Below, one piece after another: positions 9,002-32,986 of a stretch of 64,000 nt of DNA. The DNA is taken from the IMG/VR virus record IMGVR_UViG_3300037419_001546, positions 1 through 64,000 of that record; one strand, 5' to 3'. Within the stretch, counting starts at the first letter, position 1; the number at the start of each line of letters is the position of its first letter. The notes under the pieces were generated by a model. That model saw nothing but the letters and a program-made list of their open reading frames with translations, was not told the DNA's origin and ran no database searches. The translations under genes were made by a program, and so were the position numbers. The DNA comes from a virus (Duplodnaviria; Caudoviricetes).

Positions 9002-9921
9002 ACAACCACCCCGAACGGGCGCGTGAACCGCCGCGGAACCCACAGCTTCACCGCGGCCCCGGGATTCGCGTTCTCGACCCTGACCGTGAACCCGGCGTCG
9101 GGATCCTCGGGGCGCAGCCGCGCACGGATCGGATACAGGATGCCGTTGCTGTTCCACCGGTTCTGCACCGGCGCCCCGTTGGCCGCTACCAACGTCCGCT
9201 CGTCCGGATCGGAATCGATCGACAAGTCCTCACCAGGGAGCAGCGGCGGGATCCACTGCTCACGCTCGGCGTCATCAGCAGCGCGGTTATACGGCGGCGT
9301 GTTCTTCGCGTAGATCTTCAGGCCGCGGGACTTGTCCGAAACCGTCCAGTCGCCGGGCGCGGTGACGAAAGCCTTCCACCAGCATTCGACGTCGCCGCGG
9401 TTCTCGATCTGCCACGTCACCTCACCCGAGGTGCCCGACTCCAGCGTCCACTCGTATTCGAGTGGGTCGGCTTCCCAGAACGGGTTCTCGCACGCCGCGC
9501 TGATCCCCAGCGTCGAGTCGTGCGTGATGTACGGGTCTTTCTTTTCGTAGTCGGCTGATGCGTAGGCGATCGGCTCGGTGAGCAGCCGCATCTTCAGCCG
9601 GCGGACACCGTAGCTGGTGTGCGCTTCGAGTTCGAATTCGTCCTCGCCAACCATGCCCAGCGCCATCCGGAACCGGCTGTCGATATCGGCCCACACCAGC
9701 GGATTCGGGTGATAGATCTGCACCGAGAACACCGGATCCCGACGCTCGAACCGCATGCCCTGATAGCTGCTGCCAGTGGAGGTTTCGAGCCAGAAGGTTT
9801 TCGCCGGCGCGTCGATGAACTTCTGCGGGCCCGGCCGCAGCAGCACGCCCTCGGTTTCGTTCGTAAGGTCCCAGCGGGAGCCGTCGCATCCGTTGAGGTA
9901 GAGGGTGAGGTACTTGCTCAT
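8998..9921 (-). CDS. Distal tail protein (Dit)-like minor tail protein
   Basis: First gene after the tape measure; LxGCDGSxW start shared with 61495-62451. Confidence 0.8.
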   Translation of the reverse strand: MSKYLTLYLNGCDGSRWDLTNETEGVLLRPGPQKFIDAPAKTFWLETSTGSSYQGMRFERRDPVFSVQIYHPNPLVWADIDSRFRMALGMVGEDEFELEAHTSYGVRRLKMRLLTEPIAYASADYEKKDPYITHDSTLGISAACENPFWEADPLEYEWTLESGTSGEVTWQIENRGDVECWWKAFVTAPGDWTVSDKSRGLKIYAKNTPPYNRAADDAEREQWIPPLLPGEDLSIDSDPDERTLVAANGAPVQNRWNSNGILYPIRARLRPEDPDAGFTVRVENANPGAAVKLWVPRRFTRPFGVVV

Positions 9922-15057: not shown

Positions 15058-15969
15058 TCAGGAGACGGTGACCGCGCAGGTGCCGTTCAGGGCGCCGAGG
15101 GTGGCCGTGATGTTGGCGGTGCCAGCCGCGACCGCGGTGACCCGGCCGGCGGCATCGACGGTGGCCTTCGAGGTCGCCGACGAGGCGTAGGTGGCCTCGG
15201 CGGTACGGTCGAAGCCGTTGTCGTCGGTAACCGTGAGACGCGCGGTCTGACCCGCCGTCAAGGCCAGGGTCGGCGGGGTCACGAGGATGGAGGACGGCGC
15301 GCTCAGAAACCCGGCATCGTCCGCGATCAGGTCGAAACCGGAACCCGCGACACCGAAGTCGTACACGCCGCCTTCGGCGCCGAAGTCGTGGTCTTCGAAG
15401 ATCGTCAGGGTGTTGCCGAGCGGCAGTTCCTTGCCGGACTGGCCGTTCATCGCGCCCCGCTTCGAGGCCGCGACCTTCGGGAACATGAAGAACGGGTACA
15501 GGTCGCCGCTGGGGTTGACGTCCCGCGCGATCAGAAGGGCCGAGTAGTAGAAGACGTTCAGCTCGCTGGTCTTGCTGACTCGGAAGCCCTTGCCCGGCTG
15601 AGCGGAGGCTGCCGCCATCTGCACGTTGTGCCAGATCGACAGGTTGATCTTGCTCCACTCCTGCGCGATGTAGTCGATGGTCATCGACTCCCCGGTGGGC
15701 ACCACGCGTCGCGCCGCCGACGAGCCATAGCCCTCGATCGGGGACGTCTGCAGGTCGGGCGCCAGGCTGACCGCGGCGGCCTTCTGGACCTCACCCGCCG
15801 TCTGCCATCCGGCCGGCAGGGTCTGGATGACGCCGGACGAATCGCAGATGTCGGTCGGCATGTAGGGCGCGCCGGGCTGCCATTCGTGCAGGAACAGAGC
15901 CCAGTCGAGCGCGGAGAAGACGAGAGAATCGTTCTTGCCCTTCAGGGCGTGATACGTGGTAGCGGGCAT
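15058..15969 (-). CDS. Major tail protein with C-terminal Ig-like domain
   Basis: Position; C-terminal ILVTPPTLALTAGQT...ATYASS..KATVDAAGRVTAV Big_2-like domain. Confidence 0.85.
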   Translation of the reverse strand: MPATTYHALKGKNDSLVFSALDWALFLHEWQPGAPYMPTDICDSSGVIQTLPAGWQTAGEVQKAAAVSLAPDLQTSPIEGYGSSAARRVVPTGESMTIDYIAQEWSKINLSIWHNVQMAAASAQPGKGFRVSKTSELNVFYYSALLIARDVNPSGDLYPFFMFPKVAASKRGAMNGQSGKELPLGNTLTIFEDHDFGAEGGVYDFGVAGSGFDLIADDAGFLSAPSSILVTPPTLALTAGQTARLTVTDDNGFDRTAEATYASSATSKATVDAAGRVTAVAAGTANITATLGALNGTCAVTVS

Positions 15970-24599: not shown

Positions 24600-24730
24600 C
24601 GGCTGGCTGAGTCGACGCGAGGCCGACCGGAAAAACAGGAGAGGGTCGCACGCAGGATCTGGGGTGCTTTGTACCCCGCCATGGGGGCGGGGCCGATCGG
24701 GGGTCACCCCCCAGGGGTACCGGCTGCGCG
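24600..24730. other. Candidate cos/packaging region
   Basis: Between HNH and terS; G/C-run palindromes (GGGGTCACCCCCCAGGGG) resembling actinophage genome-end regions; exact ends cannot be determined. Confidence 0.4.
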
Positions 24731-25003
24731 CCGGCCTGGGTGGGGCTCTGAGGGTCGGCGTCGGGACCGGCGGGCGAGGCCTTCGGCTGCCTCGGTCCTG
24801 GTCTTCAGGTCGTGGCATCCGGGGCAGAGCGTCTGCAGGTTGTCATCGTCATCGGTGCCGCCGCGCGCCACGTTGATGATGTGGTCGACTTCGTAGCCGG
24901 GGCTGCCGCAGCGCTGGCAGGTGTAGTTGTCGCGTTCGCGGATCCGTTGAGCTGTCGCGCGGTCGACGCCGCGGTACCGGTCAGGGTCGGTGGACCAGGC
25001 CAT
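24704..25003 (-). CDS. HNH endonuclease (packaging-associated)
   Basis: RDNYTCQRC...EVDHI...GG.DD.DNLQTLC..CHDLKT. Confidence 0.9.
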   Translation of the reverse strand: MAWSTDPDRYRGVDRATAQRIRERDNYTCQRCGSPGYEVDHIINVARGGTDDDDNLQTLCPGCHDLKTRTEAAEGLARRSRRRPSEPHPGRRAAGTPGG

Positions 25004-25070
25004 GCGGTCCTCCCGTGTCGCCTCGGCGATTCGGGGATGTACTGCGGCCTGGTCCTTTACCCTGTGCGGC

Positions 25071-25343
25071 GTGACGGATGAGGAACGTGAGCGGGTTGAA
25101 CGTGAGCTGCAGGCGCTGCGTGAGCAGAACGCGAGTTTGGCCAGGACGTTGGCCGATGGCGAGACGGAGCGGATAGTCCGCGAGGCGCTGGCCACGAAGG
25201 CGCGGGCGATCTCGCAGGGCAGGCCCGATATCGCTGAGGGTGCGCAGCAGGTGATCGACAGGCTGGTGGATCAGCATGTGAAGTCGACGCTGACGCATAT
25301 GGAGTCGGTCGATGTGGAGCGGCAGCATTCGGGCGACGAGTAG
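25071..25343 (+). CDS. Hypothetical coiled-coil protein, opposite strand
   Basis: Protein-like helical composition; fills the gap between minus-strand genes. Confidence 0.5.
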   Translation: MTDEERERVERELQALREQNASLARTLADGETERIVREALATKARAISQGRPDIAEGAQQVIDRLVDQHVKSTLTHMESVDVERQHSGDE

Positions 25344-25644: not shown

Positions 25645-26313
25645 TCAGATGATGGGCACGGTGACGTCGCCTTGGTTGGCGAGCAGCATGCCGAAGTCGC
25701 GGAACGAGATGTACGCGCGGCCGTCGCGGCCCCAGCTGTCGGACCACGAGTTGAGGATGGTGAGCCGCTGGTGCTCGATATCGCCGCCGAGGACGAGGTA
25801 CTCGTGGCCGCCTTCGACCGGGCCGGTGGGTCGGATGACGCCGGCCGTGTTGGGGTCGAACATGTTCTTCGTCCACTCGGTGCCGACGATGACGGGTGAG
25901 TGCTGCAGCGCGAGCAGCAGGGCGTCGAGACCGAACGCGTGGTGGTAGGCGTCGAGGTAGCCGAGTTTGCGGCCGGCCTTGCAGACGGCGAGGCCCGACG
26001 AGCCGGTGTCGTCGGGCGGGTAGCTGCCGCTGATGCTGTCGAGTTTCGTTGCCGCCGAATAGAGTTCGACGGCGTTGTCCTCGATCAGGTAGCCGGTGCG
26101 GTGCCCTGCTTCGCCGAGCGCGGCTTGCGCGTAGTTGGTGTTGAGCCACTGGGCGAGCGCGTTGCCGGTGCACGAGCCGAGGTCGCCTTGGTCGAGCACG
26201 GGCGCCTGGTGGCTCCAGAGCACGGTCTTCGGTTTGGCCGCGGTGACGCGGGCCGGGTATTCACGGCTGCGTTCGTCGTGCTCGACGTGGCGGCCGAGGG
26301 CGTACGTGGTCAC
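25645..26313 (-). CDS. Papain-like (C1 family) cysteine peptidase
   Basis: DQGDLGSC (oxyanion Q and catalytic C), GGHEY (H), ILNSWSDSWG..G (N). Confidence 0.85.
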   Translation of the reverse strand: MTTYALGRHVEHDERSREYPARVTAAKPKTVLWSHQAPVLDQGDLGSCTGNALAQWLNTNYAQAALGEAGHRTGYLIEDNAVELYSAATKLDSISGSYPPDDTGSSGLAVCKAGRKLGYLDAYHHAFGLDALLLALQHSPVIVGTEWTKNMFDPNTAGVIRPTGPVEGGHEYLVLGGDIEHQRLTILNSWSDSWGRDGRAYISFRDFGMLLANQGDVTVPII

Positions 26314-26585
26314 TCGACGATCACCCAGTCCTCGGCGAGGAGATCGGTCTGCGATGCGAGCCACGGCACGATCGACCCCTGCGCGGTGCGCATGTCGATG
26401 TGCGGCTGGTATTCGACTGTCTCGCCGACCAGCTCGGGCGCGGCCGCGCCGAGCGGGCGATCCGCAGAGACGGTGATGTTCGAGCCGGGCACGAGGATCA
26501 GCCACATGCCGCGACCGTTCCATCCCTCGCGGGCGACGCGCTCGCCGTCGCGGAGCGCGCTCAGCGCGGCACCGAAGTCCATCAT
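26310..26585 (-). CDS. tad2: DUF2829 / Thoeris anti-defence 2 (Tad2) family sponge protein
   Basis: MDFGAAL.AL..G.RVAREGWNG.GMW and VPWLASQTDLLAEDW. Confidence 0.85.
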   Translation of the reverse strand: MMDFGAALSALRDGERVAREGWNGRGMWLILVPGSNITVSADRPLGAAAPELVGETVEYQPHIDMRTAQGSIVPWLASQTDLLAEDWVIVE

Positions 26586-26992: not shown

Positions 26993-28564
26993 TCAGAACG
27001 GCCAGTCGCCGTCGCGGCCGCGCTCCAGCAGCGGGATCATGTCGAAGCCGCGGTCGGACAGGCCGCCGAAGGTGTGCCGGTACGGGCTGCCTGCGGTGTG
27101 CCCCAATCGATATCCGGCGAGGTTCCAGGTGTACAGCGGCACGGTGCCCGGGATCACGGTGCCCGGATCGCCGTAGCTGGAGTAGCTGGCCTGCTCGTCG
27201 GTGAGGATCACGACCCGTGCGTGGCGGTCGTAGGCGGCTCGAGCGACGCCGGCGGTGTTGGTACCGCCACCGATGAAGTACCCGCCGGACTTCCACCGTT
27301 CCACCGAGCGCAGCAGCGACTCTCCCGGCTCGATCGCGAACCGCAGCCCATCGTTCGAGTACGAGATGACGTCGGCGGTCTGGCAGCGGCGAGCGAGCGC
27401 CAGCCCGAATACAACCGCGGCGTCCCACCGGCGCAGCGTGCCGTCCTTGGAGAATCCGGCGTTCATCGATCCCGAAGTGTCGATGAGGATCAGCGTGCGG
27501 CCGTGCAGCTGCGGCACGTTCGCCAGCGACGCGTCGAGCGCCTGCTCGAGCGGGTATGCCCACCGCAGCGACGGCGCGGCCCGGTAGGCCGACAGGAAGC
27601 GCATCGGCAACTGGCGTGACCGGGCGACTTCGTCCGGGTCGGACAGGCGGGCCGCGACGGTGGCCGCGACGATGTCGGACACTCCGGCCTGGTCGAAGTT
27701 GCGCAAATTCCGCAGCAGCGCCATGTAACCCATCGACGGGATGATCGCTTCCCACCGGGCCGCGGTCCACGCGCCGAACGATGACAGCGCCTCCCACGTC
27801 ATGCCCGCGTCGGCGAGCGCCTGCGGCAGGCTGCCGTCTGCGGCCATCCGGTCGATGTCTTCGCTTGTGTGCCGCTTGAATTCGGCGTTGGCGCGCAGGG
27901 TCGACAGCGTGTCCGGGATGGCGAGGTCGTCGACGCCGATGCGTCGGCCGATGATGTAGTGGTACAGGTCGGCGATGACCTGCGCACCGCCGGGGTCGGG
28001 GTGGGTCAGCTGGATGACGTCAGCGAAGCGGACACCGCGAGTGTCGCTGTCCCACTTCAGGTAGCTGCGCTCGCGGTAGAGGCGGCGGGCAGCGTCGGCG
28101 ATGCCGCGCTTGACCGGCTTCGGCAGCTTCCGCCCGTAGTGGGCGTGCCAGTACGACAGCATTTCGCCGGGCTCGTCGGCGCGCTGCAGGACGGTCTTGA
28201 TGATGTCGCGGCCGCCGGATTCGCCGGCGTCGAGGCGCGCCTTGGCGGCCTCGGCGGCGAGCACGATCGGCGCTGAGCGCATGTTCGCTTCGGTGCGCAG
28301 CCAGTGCGCGAATCGGGTGAGCCAGTCGAAGTCGGTGAGCGCGACCTGCCGGACGAGAGCAGCGAACCGGTTGTCCCGGTCGCCGGCCTTCTCGTAGAAG
28401 GTGTCTTCGCCGACGAAGTTGGTTACGGCGAGGAGGAAGAGTTCGGACTGTGCGTCACGCGCGTAGCCGGGTCCACCTTCGAAAGTGGTGGCGGTGGCGG
28501 TGGTTTCGGTCCGGATCGGCCCATGCGCGGCAGGGCGGGTGGTGCCGGTTTTGAACTTGGCCAT
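26993..28564 (-). CDS. rsr: Ro60/Rsr TROVE-domain RNA-binding protein with vWA domain
   Basis: TFEGGPGY.RD..SELFLL, R.E.NMRS, PSMGYMALLRNLRN, LIDTSGSM (MIDAS), GGGT, VVILTDEQ; RBS AAGGGG. Confidence 0.93.
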   Translation of the reverse strand: MAKFKTGTTRPAAHGPIRTETTATATTFEGGPGYARDAQSELFLLAVTNFVGEDTFYEKAGDRDNRFAALVRQVALTDFDWLTRFAHWLRTEANMRSAPIVLAAEAAKARLDAGESGGRDIIKTVLQRADEPGEMLSYWHAHYGRKLPKPVKRGIADAARRLYRERSYLKWDSDTRGVRFADVIQLTHPDPGGAQVIADLYHYIIGRRIGVDDLAIPDTLSTLRANAEFKRHTSEDIDRMAADGSLPQALADAGMTWEALSSFGAWTAARWEAIIPSMGYMALLRNLRNFDQAGVSDIVAATVAARLSDPDEVARSRQLPMRFLSAYRAAPSLRWAYPLEQALDASLANVPQLHGRTLILIDTSGSMNAGFSKDGTLRRWDAAVVFGLALARRCQTADVISYSNDGLRFAIEPGESLLRSVERWKSGGYFIGGGTNTAGVARAAYDRHARVVILTDEQASYSSYGDPGTVIPGTVPLYTWNLAGYRLGHTAGSPYRHTFGGLSDRGFDMIPLLERGRDGDWPF

Positions 28565-28611: not shown

Positions 28612-28748
28612 AGGGCCTGAGAAAGAGGTCGACGGAGGCGTTTCGTCATTTGCTCTACCAGCTGAGCTACGGACAGTTGCCCGGCGGGACTCGAACCCGC
28701 GACACAATGATTAGCAGTGAAGTAACCCCCATCTGCGCACCAGGCCCT
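28612..28748 (-). ncRNA. Y RNA 1 (YrlA-like) with permuted tRNA-like domain
   Basis: Terminal stem AGGGCCUG/CAGGCCCU; GGUGCGCAG...GUCGACC; T-arm GCGGG-UUCGAGU-CCCGC, then closed acceptor hairpin, then D-arm GCUC-AGCUGGUA-GAGC; anticodon-stem strands UCAUU/AAUGA. Confidence 0.88.
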
Positions 28749-28761
28749 CACGCGAGGTGCT

Positions 28762-28901
28762 TACCGCCCGAGGAATAGTCGGTGGAAGTGACGAGGTGTC
28801 CTAGGCCGCTAGACGACGGAAGGCGTGCCCTCCGGCGGGATTCGAACCCGCGTTACCGCTTGTTGAGAGCGAAGTAACTCCTACCTGCGCACCGGGCGGT
28901 A
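28762..28901 (-). ncRNA. Y RNA 2 (YrlA-like) with permuted tRNA-Glu-like domain
   Basis: Terminal stem UACCGCCCG/CGGGCGGUA; GGUGCGCAG...CCGACU; T-arm GCGGG-UUCGAAU-CCCGC; 7-bp acceptor stem closed by CACG; D-arm GUC-UAGCGGCCUAG-GAC. Confidence 0.88.
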
Positions 28902-28920: not shown

Positions 28921-28994
28921 CTCCCGAGAAATAAGCGCCTGAGGTACGGATCTCATCCCAAATGTGAAGTAGCCCCAGACTTCCGCACCGGAAG
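28921..28994 (-). ncRNA. Y RNA 3, minimal Y RNA without tRNA-like domain
   Basis: Same scaffold motifs (GGUGCG..AG, G-run then YUACUUC, U-rich bulge before the closing strand); stems CUUCCG/CGGGAG and CUGGGG/CCUCAG. Confidence 0.7.
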
Positions 28995-29001
28995 TGGCTT
29001 C

Positions 29002-32106: not shown

Positions 32107-32381
32107 CACGCCTCCGTTCCCGCGAGGACATCGGCGACGCGGTCGTATCGCTGCTGCGATGCGAGGCCGGCGACGAGGACTCGCGCCAGCGCGGTTGTGC
32201 GGGTGTAGACCGTGTCGTCGGGGTGCCGGATATGGATGCTGCACACGGCCGCGTAGGCGGGCGCGTTGGTGATGCTGATCCGTTCGACGCGCAGGATGCG
32301 CTCGTAGCCGCGGCGGGAGCGGTCGCGGAAGCAGTCGCCTGGGCGGATGGTGACGGTGTCGTCGATGGTGGCGACTCGCAT
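32106..32381 (-). CDS. Hypothetical protein
   Basis: Coupled ORF. Confidence 0.5.
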   Translation of the reverse strand: MRVATIDDTVTIRPGDCFRDRSRRGYERILRVERISITNAPAYAAVCSIHIRHPDDTVYTRTTALARVLVAGLASQQRYDRVADVLAGTEA

Positions 32382-32986
32382 CACGCCCCGCCGATCACGC
32401 GGTGGATGTCCTCGGCCCAAGCGTCGAGTTTGGCCATGTCCGAGAAGTCGCGGACCTTGATCTTGGCGCGGCGGCCGTCGGGGTGGTGCCAGACGATGCC
32501 CTCGTAGAGCGGGCTGGCGTCCCATTCGGCCATCAGGTCGCGCAGCGATTCGAACCCGGTTGGGATGTCGGGCAGGATGATCGCGCCGTGGCGGTGCAGG
32601 CCGTGGCCGTAGAACTTGTGCGGATTGCCGTTGATCTTCGGGCCGCACAGCTCGTATGTGCCGGGCCCGAGGATCTCGTGACGGTCGAGGGCAGCGGCGT
32701 GGATCTTGGCGAATCCGGACTGCCGCATCGGTTCCCATCCGACGCGTTTGCCGGTCCCCGGGTCGTGCTGCACCTGGACGAAATTGTCGGGTTCGGTCTT
32801 GCCACGCTTCACTTCGCGGCGCGCCCACCAGTCGCCGTGTTCGTCGAGCATGGTGCAGACGCCGTCGAGTTTCGCGGTGGCGGTGCCTTCGCCTGCGAGC
32901 ACCCAGTGGCAGTCGGGGTGCACTTCGGGGAGCAGGCGGCGCATGTCGTCGGGGTTGCGCTGGAACAGGGTTGGGATTTTGCGCAT
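32381..32986 (-). CDS. Minimal ATP-dependent RNA ligase-like nucleotidyltransferase (DUF5565/RLIG1-like)
   Basis: Motif I AKLDG, motif III YELCGPKINGNP, motif IV YEGIVW, motif V AKIK. Confidence 0.7.
   Translation of the reverse strand: MRKIPTLFQRNPDDMRRLLPEVHPDCHWVLAGEGTATAKLDGVCTMLDEHGDWWARREVKRGKTEPDNFVQVQHDPGTGKRVGWEPMRQSGFAKIHAAALDRHEILGPGTYELCGPKINGNPHKFYGHGLHRHGAIILPDIPTGFESLRDLMAEWDASPLYEGIVWHHPDGRRAKIKVRDFSDMAKLDAWAEDIHRVIGGA

What the first reader, a model, noticed from the sequence alone, without database searches (positions are those of the whole stretch)
28612..28901. Permuted tRNA modules keep a complete anticodon-loop heptamer
Both tRNA-like domains run T-arm, closed acceptor hairpin, D-arm. 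Upstream of the 3' anticodon-stem strand each has a 7-nt loop-like sequence with U33 and A37: CUGCUAA in Y1, directly before a perfect UCAUU/AAUGA stem, and CUCUCAA in Y2, a few nt before AGCGG-UAAC. Y2's D-arm and variable region match actinobacterial tRNA-Glu(CUC). So they look like whole tRNAs permuted at the 31/32 junction. Hypotheses: decoys for anticodon nucleases or tRNA-modifying enzymes or, less likely, precursors that are cut and religated like permuted tRNA genes. Y1's acceptor stem is only 5 bp, arguing against a functional tRNA.
Basis: partly seen in the sequence, partly recalled or inferred. Interest (0 to 1): 0.75.

Follow-up and report, generated by a model that had tools for sequence, protein, structure and literature searches.

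The report
Phage Y RNAs keep tRNA anticodon loops
Two small RNAs next to a phage's Ro60 gene are known-type Y RNAs (YrlA class) built from rearranged tRNA-Met-like and tRNA-Glu-like sequences, and, contrary to the published picture of this RNA class, they and about half of their relatives still carry an anticodon loop.

Summary
The feature is on the minus strand of a 74.9-kb actinobacteriophage. Three tandem Y RNAs lie upstream of rsr (Ro60).

- **Y1 (28747-28613):** a YrlA-type module. Put back in tRNA order, its core is 50/58 identical, without gaps, to a Nocardia tRNA-Met(CAU).
- **Y2 (28900-28763):** derived from tRNA-Glu. However, Y2 folds as a closed 5-bp hairpin with loop CUCAACA, so its break is at 26/27.

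Among 146 unique modules from 148 other rsr loci plus this window:
- 67 have a 5-bp hairpin with a 7-nt loop (3.2 expected by chance).
- 33 have a 5-bp stem formed in trans (3.9 expected).
- Both stems show compensatory changes.
- Loop positions 32, 33, 37 and 38 are conserved, while 34 and 35 vary freely, even among near-identical orthologs.

ARAGORN of 108 re-ordered modules tRNAs.

YrlA RNAs, their likeness to permuted tRNAs and a nuclease-inhibitor idea are already published. What I did not find published is the retained anticodon arm, which the literature labels a variable arm or reports as absent. The function is inferred only: a Ro60-tethered complete tRNA mimic, and probably not a tRNA precursor.

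The parts
28921..28995 (-). Y3: a short third Y-like RNA. It has the Ro-binding-type 5' motif CCGGUGCGG, then GGGGCUACUUC, then UUUGGGA (28962-28956), and a closing 3' strand UUUCUCGGGAG. It has no T, acceptor or D arm.
Evidence: Direct reading; coordinates; fold (z-score only -0.45). UUUGGGA is the anticodon loop of the Nocardia tRNA-Pro(UGG).
28763..28900 (-). Y2: a whole YrlA-type Y RNA. Its terminal stem is ACCGCCCGG / CUCGGGCGGU.
   Evidence: RNAfold; RNAalifold on 13 homologs; partial Rfam YrlA match of 19.2 bits.
28878..28893 (-). Y2 Ro60-binding-type 5' motif GGUGCGCAGG, followed by the helix strand. The conserved UUACUUC follows at 28877-28871.
   Evidence: Conserved across the aligned modules. 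Resembles the GNCGAA motif of Chen et al. 2014 (PMC4201824). Binding was not tested.
28856..28872 (-). Y2 closed anticodon-like arm: stem UCGCU/AGCGG with 7-nt loop CUCAACA (28867-28861).
   Evidence: ARAGORN; RNAfold; RNAalifold with compensatory changes. Homologs have loops CUUUCAC, CUCUCAA and CUCAACA.
28835..28855 (-). Y2 4-nt variable loop UAAC plus T arm GCGGG-UUCGAAU-CCCGC.
   Evidence: 19/21 identical to Nocardia tRNA-Glu. tRNA-Glu also has a 4-nt variable loop.
28817..28834 (-). Y2 closed acceptor-like hairpin: 7 bp with loop CACG.
   Evidence: Parse; RNAalifold.
28798..28816 (-). Y2 positions 8-25: U8, C9 and a D arm of tRNA-Glu type.
   Evidence: With position 26 (A, 28797) added, 19/20 identical to the Nocardia tRNA-Glu D region.
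28613..28747 (-). Y1: a whole YrlA-type Y RNA. Its terminal stem is GGGCCUG / CAGGCCC.
   Evidence: Rfam YrlA match over the full model: 47.5 bits, E = 2.6e-9, below the gathering score of 69. RNAfold; RNAalifold.
28711..28717 (-). Y1 relic anticodon loop CUGCUAA (C32 U33 G34 C35 U36 A37 A38), unpaired, directly 5' of the trans stem.
   Evidence: Colinear with CUCAUAA of tRNA-Met(CAU). Rfam's conserved CUA aligns to positions 35-37. A variant contig in the source metagenome reads UUGCUAA.
28701..28710 (-). Y1 strand UCAUU (equivalent to tRNA positions 39-43) plus variable loop GUGUC.
   Evidence: Pairs with AAUGA. The trans stem is kept in 22 of 22 homologs with covariation. GUGUC is identical to the tRNA-Met variable loop.
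28684..28700 (-). Y1 T arm GCGGG-UUCGAGU-CCCGC.
28670..28683 (-). Y1 closed acceptor-like hairpin: 5 bp with loop AACU.
   Evidence: Parse.
28646..28669 (-). Y1 positions 8-31: U8, A9, the D arm, A26 and the strand AAUGA (positions 27-31).
26996..28564 (-). rsr: a Ro60 ortholog of 523 aa, with TROVE and vWA-like domains.
   Evidence: Pfam TROVE, 62 bits; PHROG 850. 88% identical to an IMG/VR viral contig and 68-71% to Nocardia loci.

Best explanation
**What it is (shown).** Y1 and Y2 are phage-encoded Y RNAs of the YrlA class, lying upstream of the phage's own Ro60 gene.
- In each, the 5' and 3' ends pair into a Ro60-binding-type helix. The rest is a complete tRNA in rearranged order.
- Y1 descends from a tRNA-Met(CAU)-like gene and is broken between positions 31 and 32. 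Its anticodon stem forms in trans, and the old loop CUGCUAA hangs unpaired on the 5' side.
- Y2 descends from a tRNA-Glu-like gene and is broken between 26 and 27. It therefore keeps a closed anticodon arm.
- The same two layouts recur in about two thirds of related modules from actinobacteria and their phages.

**What is under selection (shown).** Selection keeps the generic shape of an anticodon loop (C32, U33, purine 37, A38). It does not keep the anticodon itself.

**How it most likely works (inferred).**
- Ro60 holds the helix and displays a full tRNA look-alike, anticodon loop included.
- This serves as a bait or competitor for a factor that reads anticodon loops, most plausibly host anticodon nucleases switched on during infection.
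- It is not a decoding tRNA.

**Confidence.** About 0.9 for the anatomy and about 0.35 for the bait mechanism.
For: **Setting**
- The window's genome is a virus record with tape measure, portal and terminase genes.
- rsr carries a TROVE domain. Rfam YrlA matches score 47.5 and 19.2 bits.

**Parent tRNAs**
- Y1's core is 50/58 identical, gap-free, to tRNA-Met(CAU). The eight differences are two compensatory stem pairs, two D-loop bases and anticodon positions 34 and 35.
- Y1's stem strands alone match at 8/10, the best of 52 tRNAs.
- Y2 is 50/58 identical to tRNA-Glu. It shares the tRNA-Glu D arm and the 4-nt variable loop.

**Structure**
- The hairpin and the trans stem are each predicted without constraints and show compensatory changes.
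- Counts far exceed shuffles: 67 against 3.2, and 33 against 3.9.
- Loop make-up in 78 modules: C32 78%, U33 92%, purine-37 83%, A38 90%.
- In 20 Streptomyces orthologs, positions 34 and 35 are the most variable sites inside the fold, while 32, 33, 36, 37 and 38 are invariant or nearly so (one ortholog has C37).
- ARAGORN of 108 re-ordered modules tRNAs.

**Origin**
- Hairpin-type modules keep a second strand resembling positions 27-31 after the D arm: 32 of 78, against 14.4 expected. This fits the published dimeric-tRNA origin (10.1101/312249).

**Function context**
- A Tad2-like anti-defence gene lies about 400 nt downstream of rsr.
- Anticodon loops are common targets of bacterial immunity, and phages answer with tRNAs (PMC10264068, PMC11555353).
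- A nuclease-inhibitor role was proposed for Salmonella YrlA (PMC7790460).
Against: - No expression, Ro60 binding, cleavage or modification data exist for this phage. The only public run that holds it is a soil metagenome.
- The free variation at 34 and 35 is no faster than at the unstructured 3' tail sites. It may be plain neutrality rather than an arms race.
- In Y1's own trans-type family, only positions 36-38 are kept and the 5' half of the loop decays. A full loop is therefore not always needed.
- The Tad2 neighbour is not conserved in 148 other rsr loci.
- Salmonella YrlA works without any anticodon loop (10.1101/312249).
- Known Ro60/Y RNA complexes recruit PNPase, including in a Thermus phage (PMC12135203). 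That needs no anticodon mimicry.
Confidence: 0.45

Rival explanations
1. Structural relic only. The anticodon arm is inherited from the parent tRNA and kept because it stabilises the L-shaped fold and shields the RNA from nucleases. The complex works as in Deinococcus, Salmonella and Thermus phage phiLo: Ro60 plus Y RNA recruit host PNPase for decay of structured RNA. The loop's conserved positions reflect only the stability of the U-turn and the 3' stack.
For: - Ro60-Y RNA-PNPase complexes are the only demonstrated function, including one phage case (PMC12135203; PMC4201824 discussion).
- Positions 34 and 35 look unconstrained.
- Trans-type modules tolerate loss of the 5' half of the loop.
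- Salmonella YrlA lacks a loop (10.1101/312249).
Against: - A 7-nt loop with C32, U33, R37 and A38 is kept in 78 unique modules across distant genera and phages. A short stable tetraloop would serve stability better.
- The hairpin stem is maintained by compensatory changes.
Confidence: 0.3
2. Substrate or sponge for tRNA-modifying or processing enzymes. The loop types U36-A37-A38 and G36-G37 match what I recall of the requirements of the t6A37 and m1G37 enzymes. With a 7-bp acceptor stem, Y2 may also be cut by RNase P and receive CCA, as in M. smegmatis. Modification or processing could mature or stabilise the RNA, or the RNA could titrate these enzymes.
For: - Salmonella YrlA is modified by TruB and DusA. 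M. smegmatis YrlA is cut by RNase P and gains CCA in vivo (PMC4201824).
- The M. smegmatis probe sequence implies the loop CUUCUAA in that RNA.
- Most acceptor stems are 7 or 8 bp: 87 of 108.
- UAA or GGA at positions 36-38 dominates the trans class.
Against: - No modification data exist for positions 34-38 in any YrlA.
- Y1 has only a 5-bp acceptor stem.
- The enzyme determinants are recalled from memory and were not tested here.
Confidence: 0.12
3. Permuted pre-tRNAs. The RNAs would be cut at the junction and in the acceptor loop, then religated (for example by the phage's RLIG1-like ligase or a host RtcB) into working tRNAs, as in Cyanidioschyzon and some archaea.
For: - 102 of 108 re-ordered modules pass ARAGORN as tRNAs.
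- A 201-aa ORF at 32986-32381 matches RLIG1 (PF17720) at 28.8 bits, cut-off 25.
- Wang et al. raised the idea (10.1101/312249).
Against: - Near-identical Streptomyces orthologs carry GAU, CAU, GUU, CCU and UCU on one constant body, which is incompatible with a fixed amino-acid identity.
- Y2's loop has C at position 37.
- Y1's acceptor stem is 5 bp.
- No splicing endonuclease is known in bacteria.
- The ligase neighbour is absent from 148 other loci.
Confidence: 0.03

Closest known systems
YrlA (Y RNA-like A; Rfam RF02553), as described in Salmonella Typhimurium and Mycobacterium smegmatis (Chen et al. 2014, PMC4201824; Wang et al. 2018, 10.1101/312249)
   Same: - Encoded just upstream of rsr on the same strand.
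- The 5' and 3' ends form the Ro60-binding helix.
- The order is T arm, closed acceptor-like hairpin, D arm, with the tRNA tertiary-contact nucleotides present.
- Several Y RNAs occur per locus, and the family is also known in phages.
   Different: - The solved Salmonella module has no anticodon loop, and the authors say so.
- The extra hairpin 5' of the T arm in other species was labelled a variable (V) arm.
- Here that hairpin has a 5-bp stem and a 7-nt loop with C32, U33, R37 and A38. A normal 4-5-nt variable loop follows it. In the Glu-, Met- and Asn-like modules it is colinear with the parent tRNA's anticodon arm.
- Both window RNAs score below Rfam's gathering cut-off.
Circularly permuted tRNA genes of Cyanidioschyzon merolae and some archaea (cited in 10.1101/312249)
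   Same: - The 3' half comes before the 5' half.
- The acceptor stem is first a closed loop.
- The junction lies in or near the anticodon arm.
   Different: - Those RNAs are matured by a splicing endonuclease and a ligase into decoding tRNAs with fixed identity.
- Here the anticodon drifts among orthologs, no such endonuclease is known in bacteria, and the ends are extended into a Ro60-binding helix.
Phage-encoded tRNAs that evade or compensate for host anticodon nucleases (PMC10264068; PMC11555353)
   Same: - Phage-borne tRNA-shaped RNAs whose anticodon loops are the relevant surface in conflicts with tRNA-cleaving defences.
   Different: - Those are ordinary, chargeable tRNAs that replace cleaved host tRNAs.
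- Y1 and Y2 have closed acceptor stems and are tied to Ro60, so they could at most act as baits or inhibitors.
Deinococcus radiodurans Yrn1 (PMC4201824)
   Same: - A Y RNA with a T arm and a stem-loop that the authors modelled as a possible anticodon arm.
   Different: - Yrn1's loop has 6 nt.
- Its D arm is doubtful.
- The order of its arms differs from YrlA.

Membership tests
YrlA-class Y RNA (RF02553) | Encoded next to, and on the same strand as, a Ro60 (TROVE) gene | tested here: met
   Y1 ends 48 nt upstream of the rsr start codon at 28564. rsr has a TROVE domain.
YrlA-class Y RNA (RF02553) | Order T arm, closed acceptor-like stem-loop, D arm, with tRNA tertiary-contact nucleotides (U8, A14, G18-G19, purine 15 with pyrimidine 48, T-loop UUCRA) | tested here: met
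   Direct reading of both modules. Supported by RNAalifold.
YrlA-class Y RNA (RF02553) | 5' and 3' ends pair into a helix carrying the conserved Ro60-binding 5' motif | tested here: inconclusive
   GGUGCGCAG and the paired ends are present and covary. Binding to Ro60 cannot be tested with these tools.
YrlA-class Y RNA (RF02553) | Reaches Rfam's gathering score (69 bits) | tested here: not met
   47.5 bits (Y1, full model, E = 2.6e-9) and 19.2 bits (Y2, partial). No hit at the gathering threshold. The Rfam model has a second paired stem where these RNAs carry the anticodon-loop region.
Circularly permuted tRNA gene (matured to a working tRNA) | 3' half precedes the 5' half, and re-ordering gives a full cloverleaf | tested here: met
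   ARAGORN calls re-ordered Y1, Y2 and 102 of 108 modules tRNAs.
Circularly permuted tRNA gene (matured to a working tRNA) | Stable anticodon and identity consistent with decoding | tested here: not met
   Anticodon positions 34 and 35 differ among near-identical orthologs. The loop triplet matches the best-fitting tRNA body in only 10 of 92 modules, against 4.8 expected.
Circularly permuted tRNA gene (matured to a working tRNA) | Processing by cutting and religation at the junction | not testable with these tools
   No RNA reads for this phage.
Ordinary tRNA gene | Native-order cloverleaf with a paired, open acceptor stem | tested here: not met
   The ARAGORN call tRNA-Leu(CAA) at 28827-28899 uses the Y2 anticodon hairpin and T arm, but its acceptor stem has two non-pairs and one G·U in seven and its D stem is degenerate.

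The most novel reading that the evidence does not exclude
The anticodon loops of phage and actinobacterial YrlA modules are functional baits in a conflict over tRNA cleavage. Ro60 would present a full tRNA decoy that captures or inhibits host anticodon nucleases, or reports their activity. The hypervariable positions 34 and 35 on otherwise frozen RNAs, together with the repeated swapping of whole modules between tRNA types (Met, Glu, Asn, Pro, Leu-like), would track the nuclease repertoires of the hosts.
Probability: 0.2. Interest if true: 0.85.

Novelty: new variant of a known kind. Interest (0 to 1): 0.58.

Why it matters
Twelve years after YrlA was described, the partner of its tRNA-like half is still unknown.

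- **Narrower search for the partner.** Many members carry a real, selected anticodon loop and can be traced to specific parent tRNAs. That points the search towards factors that read anticodon loops: nucleases, loop-modifying enzymes and repair ligases.
- **Direct tests become possible.** The published nuclease-competitor idea can now be tested with loop point mutants.
- **Origin of a known motif.** The conserved YUAY motif of YrlA would be positions 35-38 of an old anticodon loop.
- **Support for the dimeric-tRNA origin.** The sequence data here back that model. They also show the tRNA module was replaced repeatedly, since even the closest Ro60 relative (88% identical) carries non-orthologous Y RNAs.

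Tried and rejected
- **Rfam at gathering threshold:** no hit in the window.
- **ARAGORN on the native sequence:** the tRNA-Leu(CAA) call at 28827-28899 is an artefact of Y2's hairpin plus T arm. The two tRNA-Arg calls (9147-9244 and 15135-15227) have poor stems and odd lengths, and I do not accept them. The phage therefore has no tRNA set of its own to compare with.
- **Expression data:** the only full holder is a soil metagenome that may be the source. The other runs hold only short conserved tRNA-like pieces. No starts, ends or processing sites could be read.
- **Conserved neighbours:** Tad2, the peptidase, the RLIG1-like ORF, DUF6221 and orf29017 have no homologs at E <= 1e-4 in 148 other rsr loci. 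At a lax cut-off, Tad2 gives one weak hit at E = 3e-4. The anti-defence setting is therefore specific to this phage.
- **Link between loop triplet and best-fitting tRNA body:** weak. 10 of 92 match, against 4.8 expected; 37 of 2000 shuffles reach the observed count.
- **Variable-arm reading of the hairpin:** rejected for Met-, Glu- and Asn-like modules. They have no other anticodon stem, the loop is 7 nt, and a 4-5-nt variable loop follows. It is correct for Streptomyces Leu-like modules, which have both a trans stem and a long variable arm.
- **MAFFT alignment A1 mixing both variable-loop lengths:** not structure-consistent, so not used for pair counts.
- **Literature:** two reviews (Sim and Wolin 2018; Sim et al. 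2020) are not held. I cannot exclude that they mention the anticodon arm.

Full report
**1. What is at the coordinates**

The feature lies on the minus strand. Rfam's YrlA model matches 28732-28629 over its full length (47.5 bits, E = 2.6e-9). It matches 28852-28798 in part (19.2 bits). Both scores are below the gathering score of 69, so nothing is reported at the default threshold.

The ORF that starts at 28564 encodes a 523-aa Ro60 ortholog with a TROVE domain. The whole genome held for this window is a single 74.9-kb contig of 67% G+C, flagged as a virus record. It carries tape measure, minor tail, portal, large terminase and RecT genes. This is therefore a phage rsr cassette with tandem Y RNAs.

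- Y2 spans 28900-28763 and Y1 spans 28747-28613.

**2. Checking the observation**

Y1 is as described:
- CUGCUAA (28717-28711) directly precedes UCAUU.
- UCAUU pairs perfectly with AAUGA, which follows the D arm.
- The order is T arm, 5-bp closed acceptor hairpin, then D arm.

Y2 contains CUCUCAA (28869-28863). However, its local structure is a closed hairpin, UCGCU-CUCAACA-AGCGG (28872-28856), followed by UAAC and the T arm.
- ARAGORN found this hairpin and wrongly called 28827-28899 a tRNA-Leu(CAA). In that call the acceptor stem has two non-pairs and one G·U in seven, and the D stem is degenerate.
- RNAfold places the same hairpin in the minimum-energy fold.

**3. Parent tRNAs**

The phage has no credible tRNAs of its own. 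I therefore took 52 distinct tRNAs from the Nocardia genome behind locus L019. Its Rsr is 71% identical to the phage protein.

Y1:
- Put back in tRNA order, Y1 positions 8-65 are 50/58 identical to a tRNA-Met(CAU) without any gap.
- The eight differences are two D-loop bases, one compensatory pair in the anticodon stem, one compensatory pair in the T stem, and anticodon positions 34 and 35 (CA to GC).
- The ten stem nucleotides alone match that same tRNA at 8/10. This is the best of the 52; the next best is 6/10.
- CUGCUAA is therefore the homolog of the loop CUCAUAA, and the break is at 31/32.

Y2:
- It is 50/58 identical to tRNA-Glu. It shares the tRNA-Glu D arm (19/20) and the 4-nt variable loop.
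- Y2 homologs carry CUUUCAC, CUCUCAA and CUCAACA in the hairpin loop.

**4. Homologs**

I collected 80 rsr loci from actinobacterial genomes and 68 from IMG/VR viral contigs. I parsed 195 modules, of which 146 are unique in the region 5' of the T arm.

Two layouts dominate:

| Layout | Description | Observed | Shuffles |
|---|---|---|---|
| Cis | Closed 5-bp hairpin with a 7-nt loop, placed 4-5 nt before the T stem | 67 | 3.2 +/- 1.7 (max 10) |
| Trans | 5-bp stem between those same nucleotides and the strand right after the D arm | 33 | 3.9 +/- 1.9 |

RNAalifold, run without constraints, recovers both layouts:
- The cis hairpin appears in 26 modules with a 5-nt variable loop and in 13 Glu-like modules including Y2. 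Compensatory changes are present, for example CG 17, GC 8 and AU 1 at one pair.
- The trans stem appears in 22 modules including Y1. No pair is broken, and 2 to 15 sequences per pair changed on both sides.

When re-ordered in silico, 74 of 78 cis modules and 28 of 30 trans modules are called tRNAs by ARAGORN.

**5. Conservation of the heptamer**

- In 78 cis loops: C32 78%, U33 92%, A37 69% (purine 83%) and A38 90%. Positions 34-36 vary; an earlier parse of 52 of these loops counted 21 different triplets.
- In 20 Streptomyces orthologs that are otherwise nearly identical, positions 34 and 35 are the most variable sites inside the folded RNA (GA, CA, GU, CC, UC). Positions 32, 33, 36, 37 and 38 are invariant or nearly so (one ortholog has C37).
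- In the trans family of Y1, only the three nucleotides before the stem are kept. UAA or GGA is the commonest, A38 is present in 19 of 22, and position 37 is a purine in 21 of 22. The stretch between CUUC and the stem ranges from 0 to 8 nt.
- Rfam's conserved CUA aligns to Y1 positions 35-37. The published YUAY motif of YrlA therefore appears to be the 3' part of an old anticodon loop.
- A related contig in the source metagenome reads UUGCUAA at the Y1 loop. In that contig, 81 other letters stand in place of most of Y2.

**6. Origin**

- Cis modules keep, after the D arm, a strand that could still pair with the hairpin's 3' strand: 32 of 78 have at least 4 contiguous pairs, against 14.4 +/- 3.2 expected. 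A tandem-tRNA origin predicts this, because the second tRNA would contribute its D arm and the start of its anticodon stem (model cited in 10.1101/312249).
- Modules resemble different tRNAs:
  - Glu, Met and Asn (T arm identical to tRNA-Asn, with loop CUGUUAA);
  - Pro-like loops such as UUUGGGA;
  - Streptomyces Leu-like modules with a true long variable arm.
- The closest Rsr relative (L131, 88% identical) carries non-orthologous Y RNAs. Modules are therefore exchanged.
- The link between the loop triplet and the best-fitting tRNA body is only weak: 10 of 92, against 4.8 expected.

**7. Comparison with the literature**

- YrlA RNAs, their tRNA mimicry and their presence in 22 phages are published (PMC4201824).
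- The same paper calls the hairpin 5' of the T arm a variable arm.
- The crystal-structure paper states that Salmonella YrlA lacks the anticodon loop. It already compares YrlA with permuted tRNAs and cites the dimeric-tRNA origin (10.1101/312249).
- A role as a competitive inhibitor of an anticodon nuclease was suggested for Salmonella YrlA (PMC7790460).
- In the held library I found no report that the hairpin is an anticodon arm with conserved loop positions. Nor did I find a report of identifiable parent tRNAs or of several break points. Two reviews could not be read.
- The M. smegmatis probe sequence printed in PMC4201824 implies the loop CUUCUAA in that validated RNA.

**8. Function**

Shown:
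- The anatomy and the descent from tRNAs.
- The selection pattern on the loop.

Inferred:
- Ro60 binds the terminal helix.
- The tRNA module acts as a bait or competitor for a factor that reads anticodon loops.

Context that fits the bait idea:
- A Tad2-like anti-defence gene lies at 26585-26310 (PF11195, 92 bits).
- An RLIG1-like ORF lies at 32986-32381 (PF17720, 28.8 bits).
- Anticodon loops are frequent targets of bacterial immunity (PMC10264068, PMC11555353).

Context against it:
- These neighbours are not conserved elsewhere.
- Positions 34 and 35 may simply be neutral.
- The only proven partner of Ro60-Y RNA complexes is PNPase (PMC12135203).

A role as a tRNA precursor is unlikely, because orthologs with the same body carry different anticodons.

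**9. Verdict**

It needs one structural correction: Y2 is broken at 26/27. It refines a known RNA family rather than founding a new one, and its functional meaning remains untested.

Noticed in passing
window 28921-28995 (-): A third, short Y-like RNA (Y3). It has the Ro-binding-type ends and the GGGGCUACUUC motif but no T, acceptor or D arm. After CUUCACA it still carries UUUGGGA, which is the tRNA-Pro(UGG) anticodon loop seen in many Streptomyces modules. It looks like a module that lost its tRNA core.
   Followed up: partly
window 26310-26585 (-): A Tad2-like (Thoeris anti-defence 2) gene of 91 aa (PF11195, 92 bits), about 400 nt downstream of rsr. It is not found next to rsr in 148 other loci.
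   Followed up: partly
window 32381-32986 (-): A 201-aa ORF with a partial match to RNA ligase 1 (RLIG1, PF17720): 28.8 bits, just over the cut-off of 25. It could be a phage RNA ligase in a phage that has Ro60 but no RtcB.
   Followed up: partly
window 25645-26523 (-) and 24704-25195 (-): A papain-like peptidase (PHROG 16701, E = 2.9e-61). The reading frame taken for it overlaps the Tad2-like ORF (26310-26585), so its real start is probably further downstream. An HNH endonuclease lies just upstream of the large terminase.
   Followed up: no
L061, L068, L070, L072-L075, L080 (module about 150-200 nt upstream of rsr): Streptomyces modules that resemble class II tRNA-Leu. They have a Leu-type D arm, a trans stem ACUGG/CCAGU and a true long variable-arm hairpin. 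A loop-like UUAUAAG lies on the 3' side of the stem, which suggests a third break point near 38/39.
   Followed up: partly
L131:900-1200 (IMG/VR contig; Rsr 88% identical to the window's): The closest Rsr relative carries different Y RNAs. One module has a 10-bp acceptor hairpin, a Cys/Ser-like D arm and a degenerate anticodon hairpin. The other is a short RNA with only a T arm. The tRNA modules are evidently swapped between otherwise close cassettes.
   Followed up: partly
window 28772-28888, as seen in run X1: A second contig in the source soil metagenome (depth 48 against 173) has a diverged Y1, with loop UUGCUAA. In it, 81 other letters stand in place of 115 nt of Y2.
   Followed up: no
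L006, L013, L015, L149, L152, L163, L167, L183: In these loci, rsr and its Y RNAs lie next to arrays of ordinary tRNA genes. In L167 and L183 a normal tRNA is followed directly by a Y RNA.
   Followed up: no
window 9147-9244 (-) and 15135-15227 (+): ARAGORN calls two tRNA-Arg genes of 98 and 93 nt with weak stems. The first lies just upstream of the tape measure gene, and the second is at 15.1 kb, also in the structural-gene region. Both are probably false positives.
   Followed up: no
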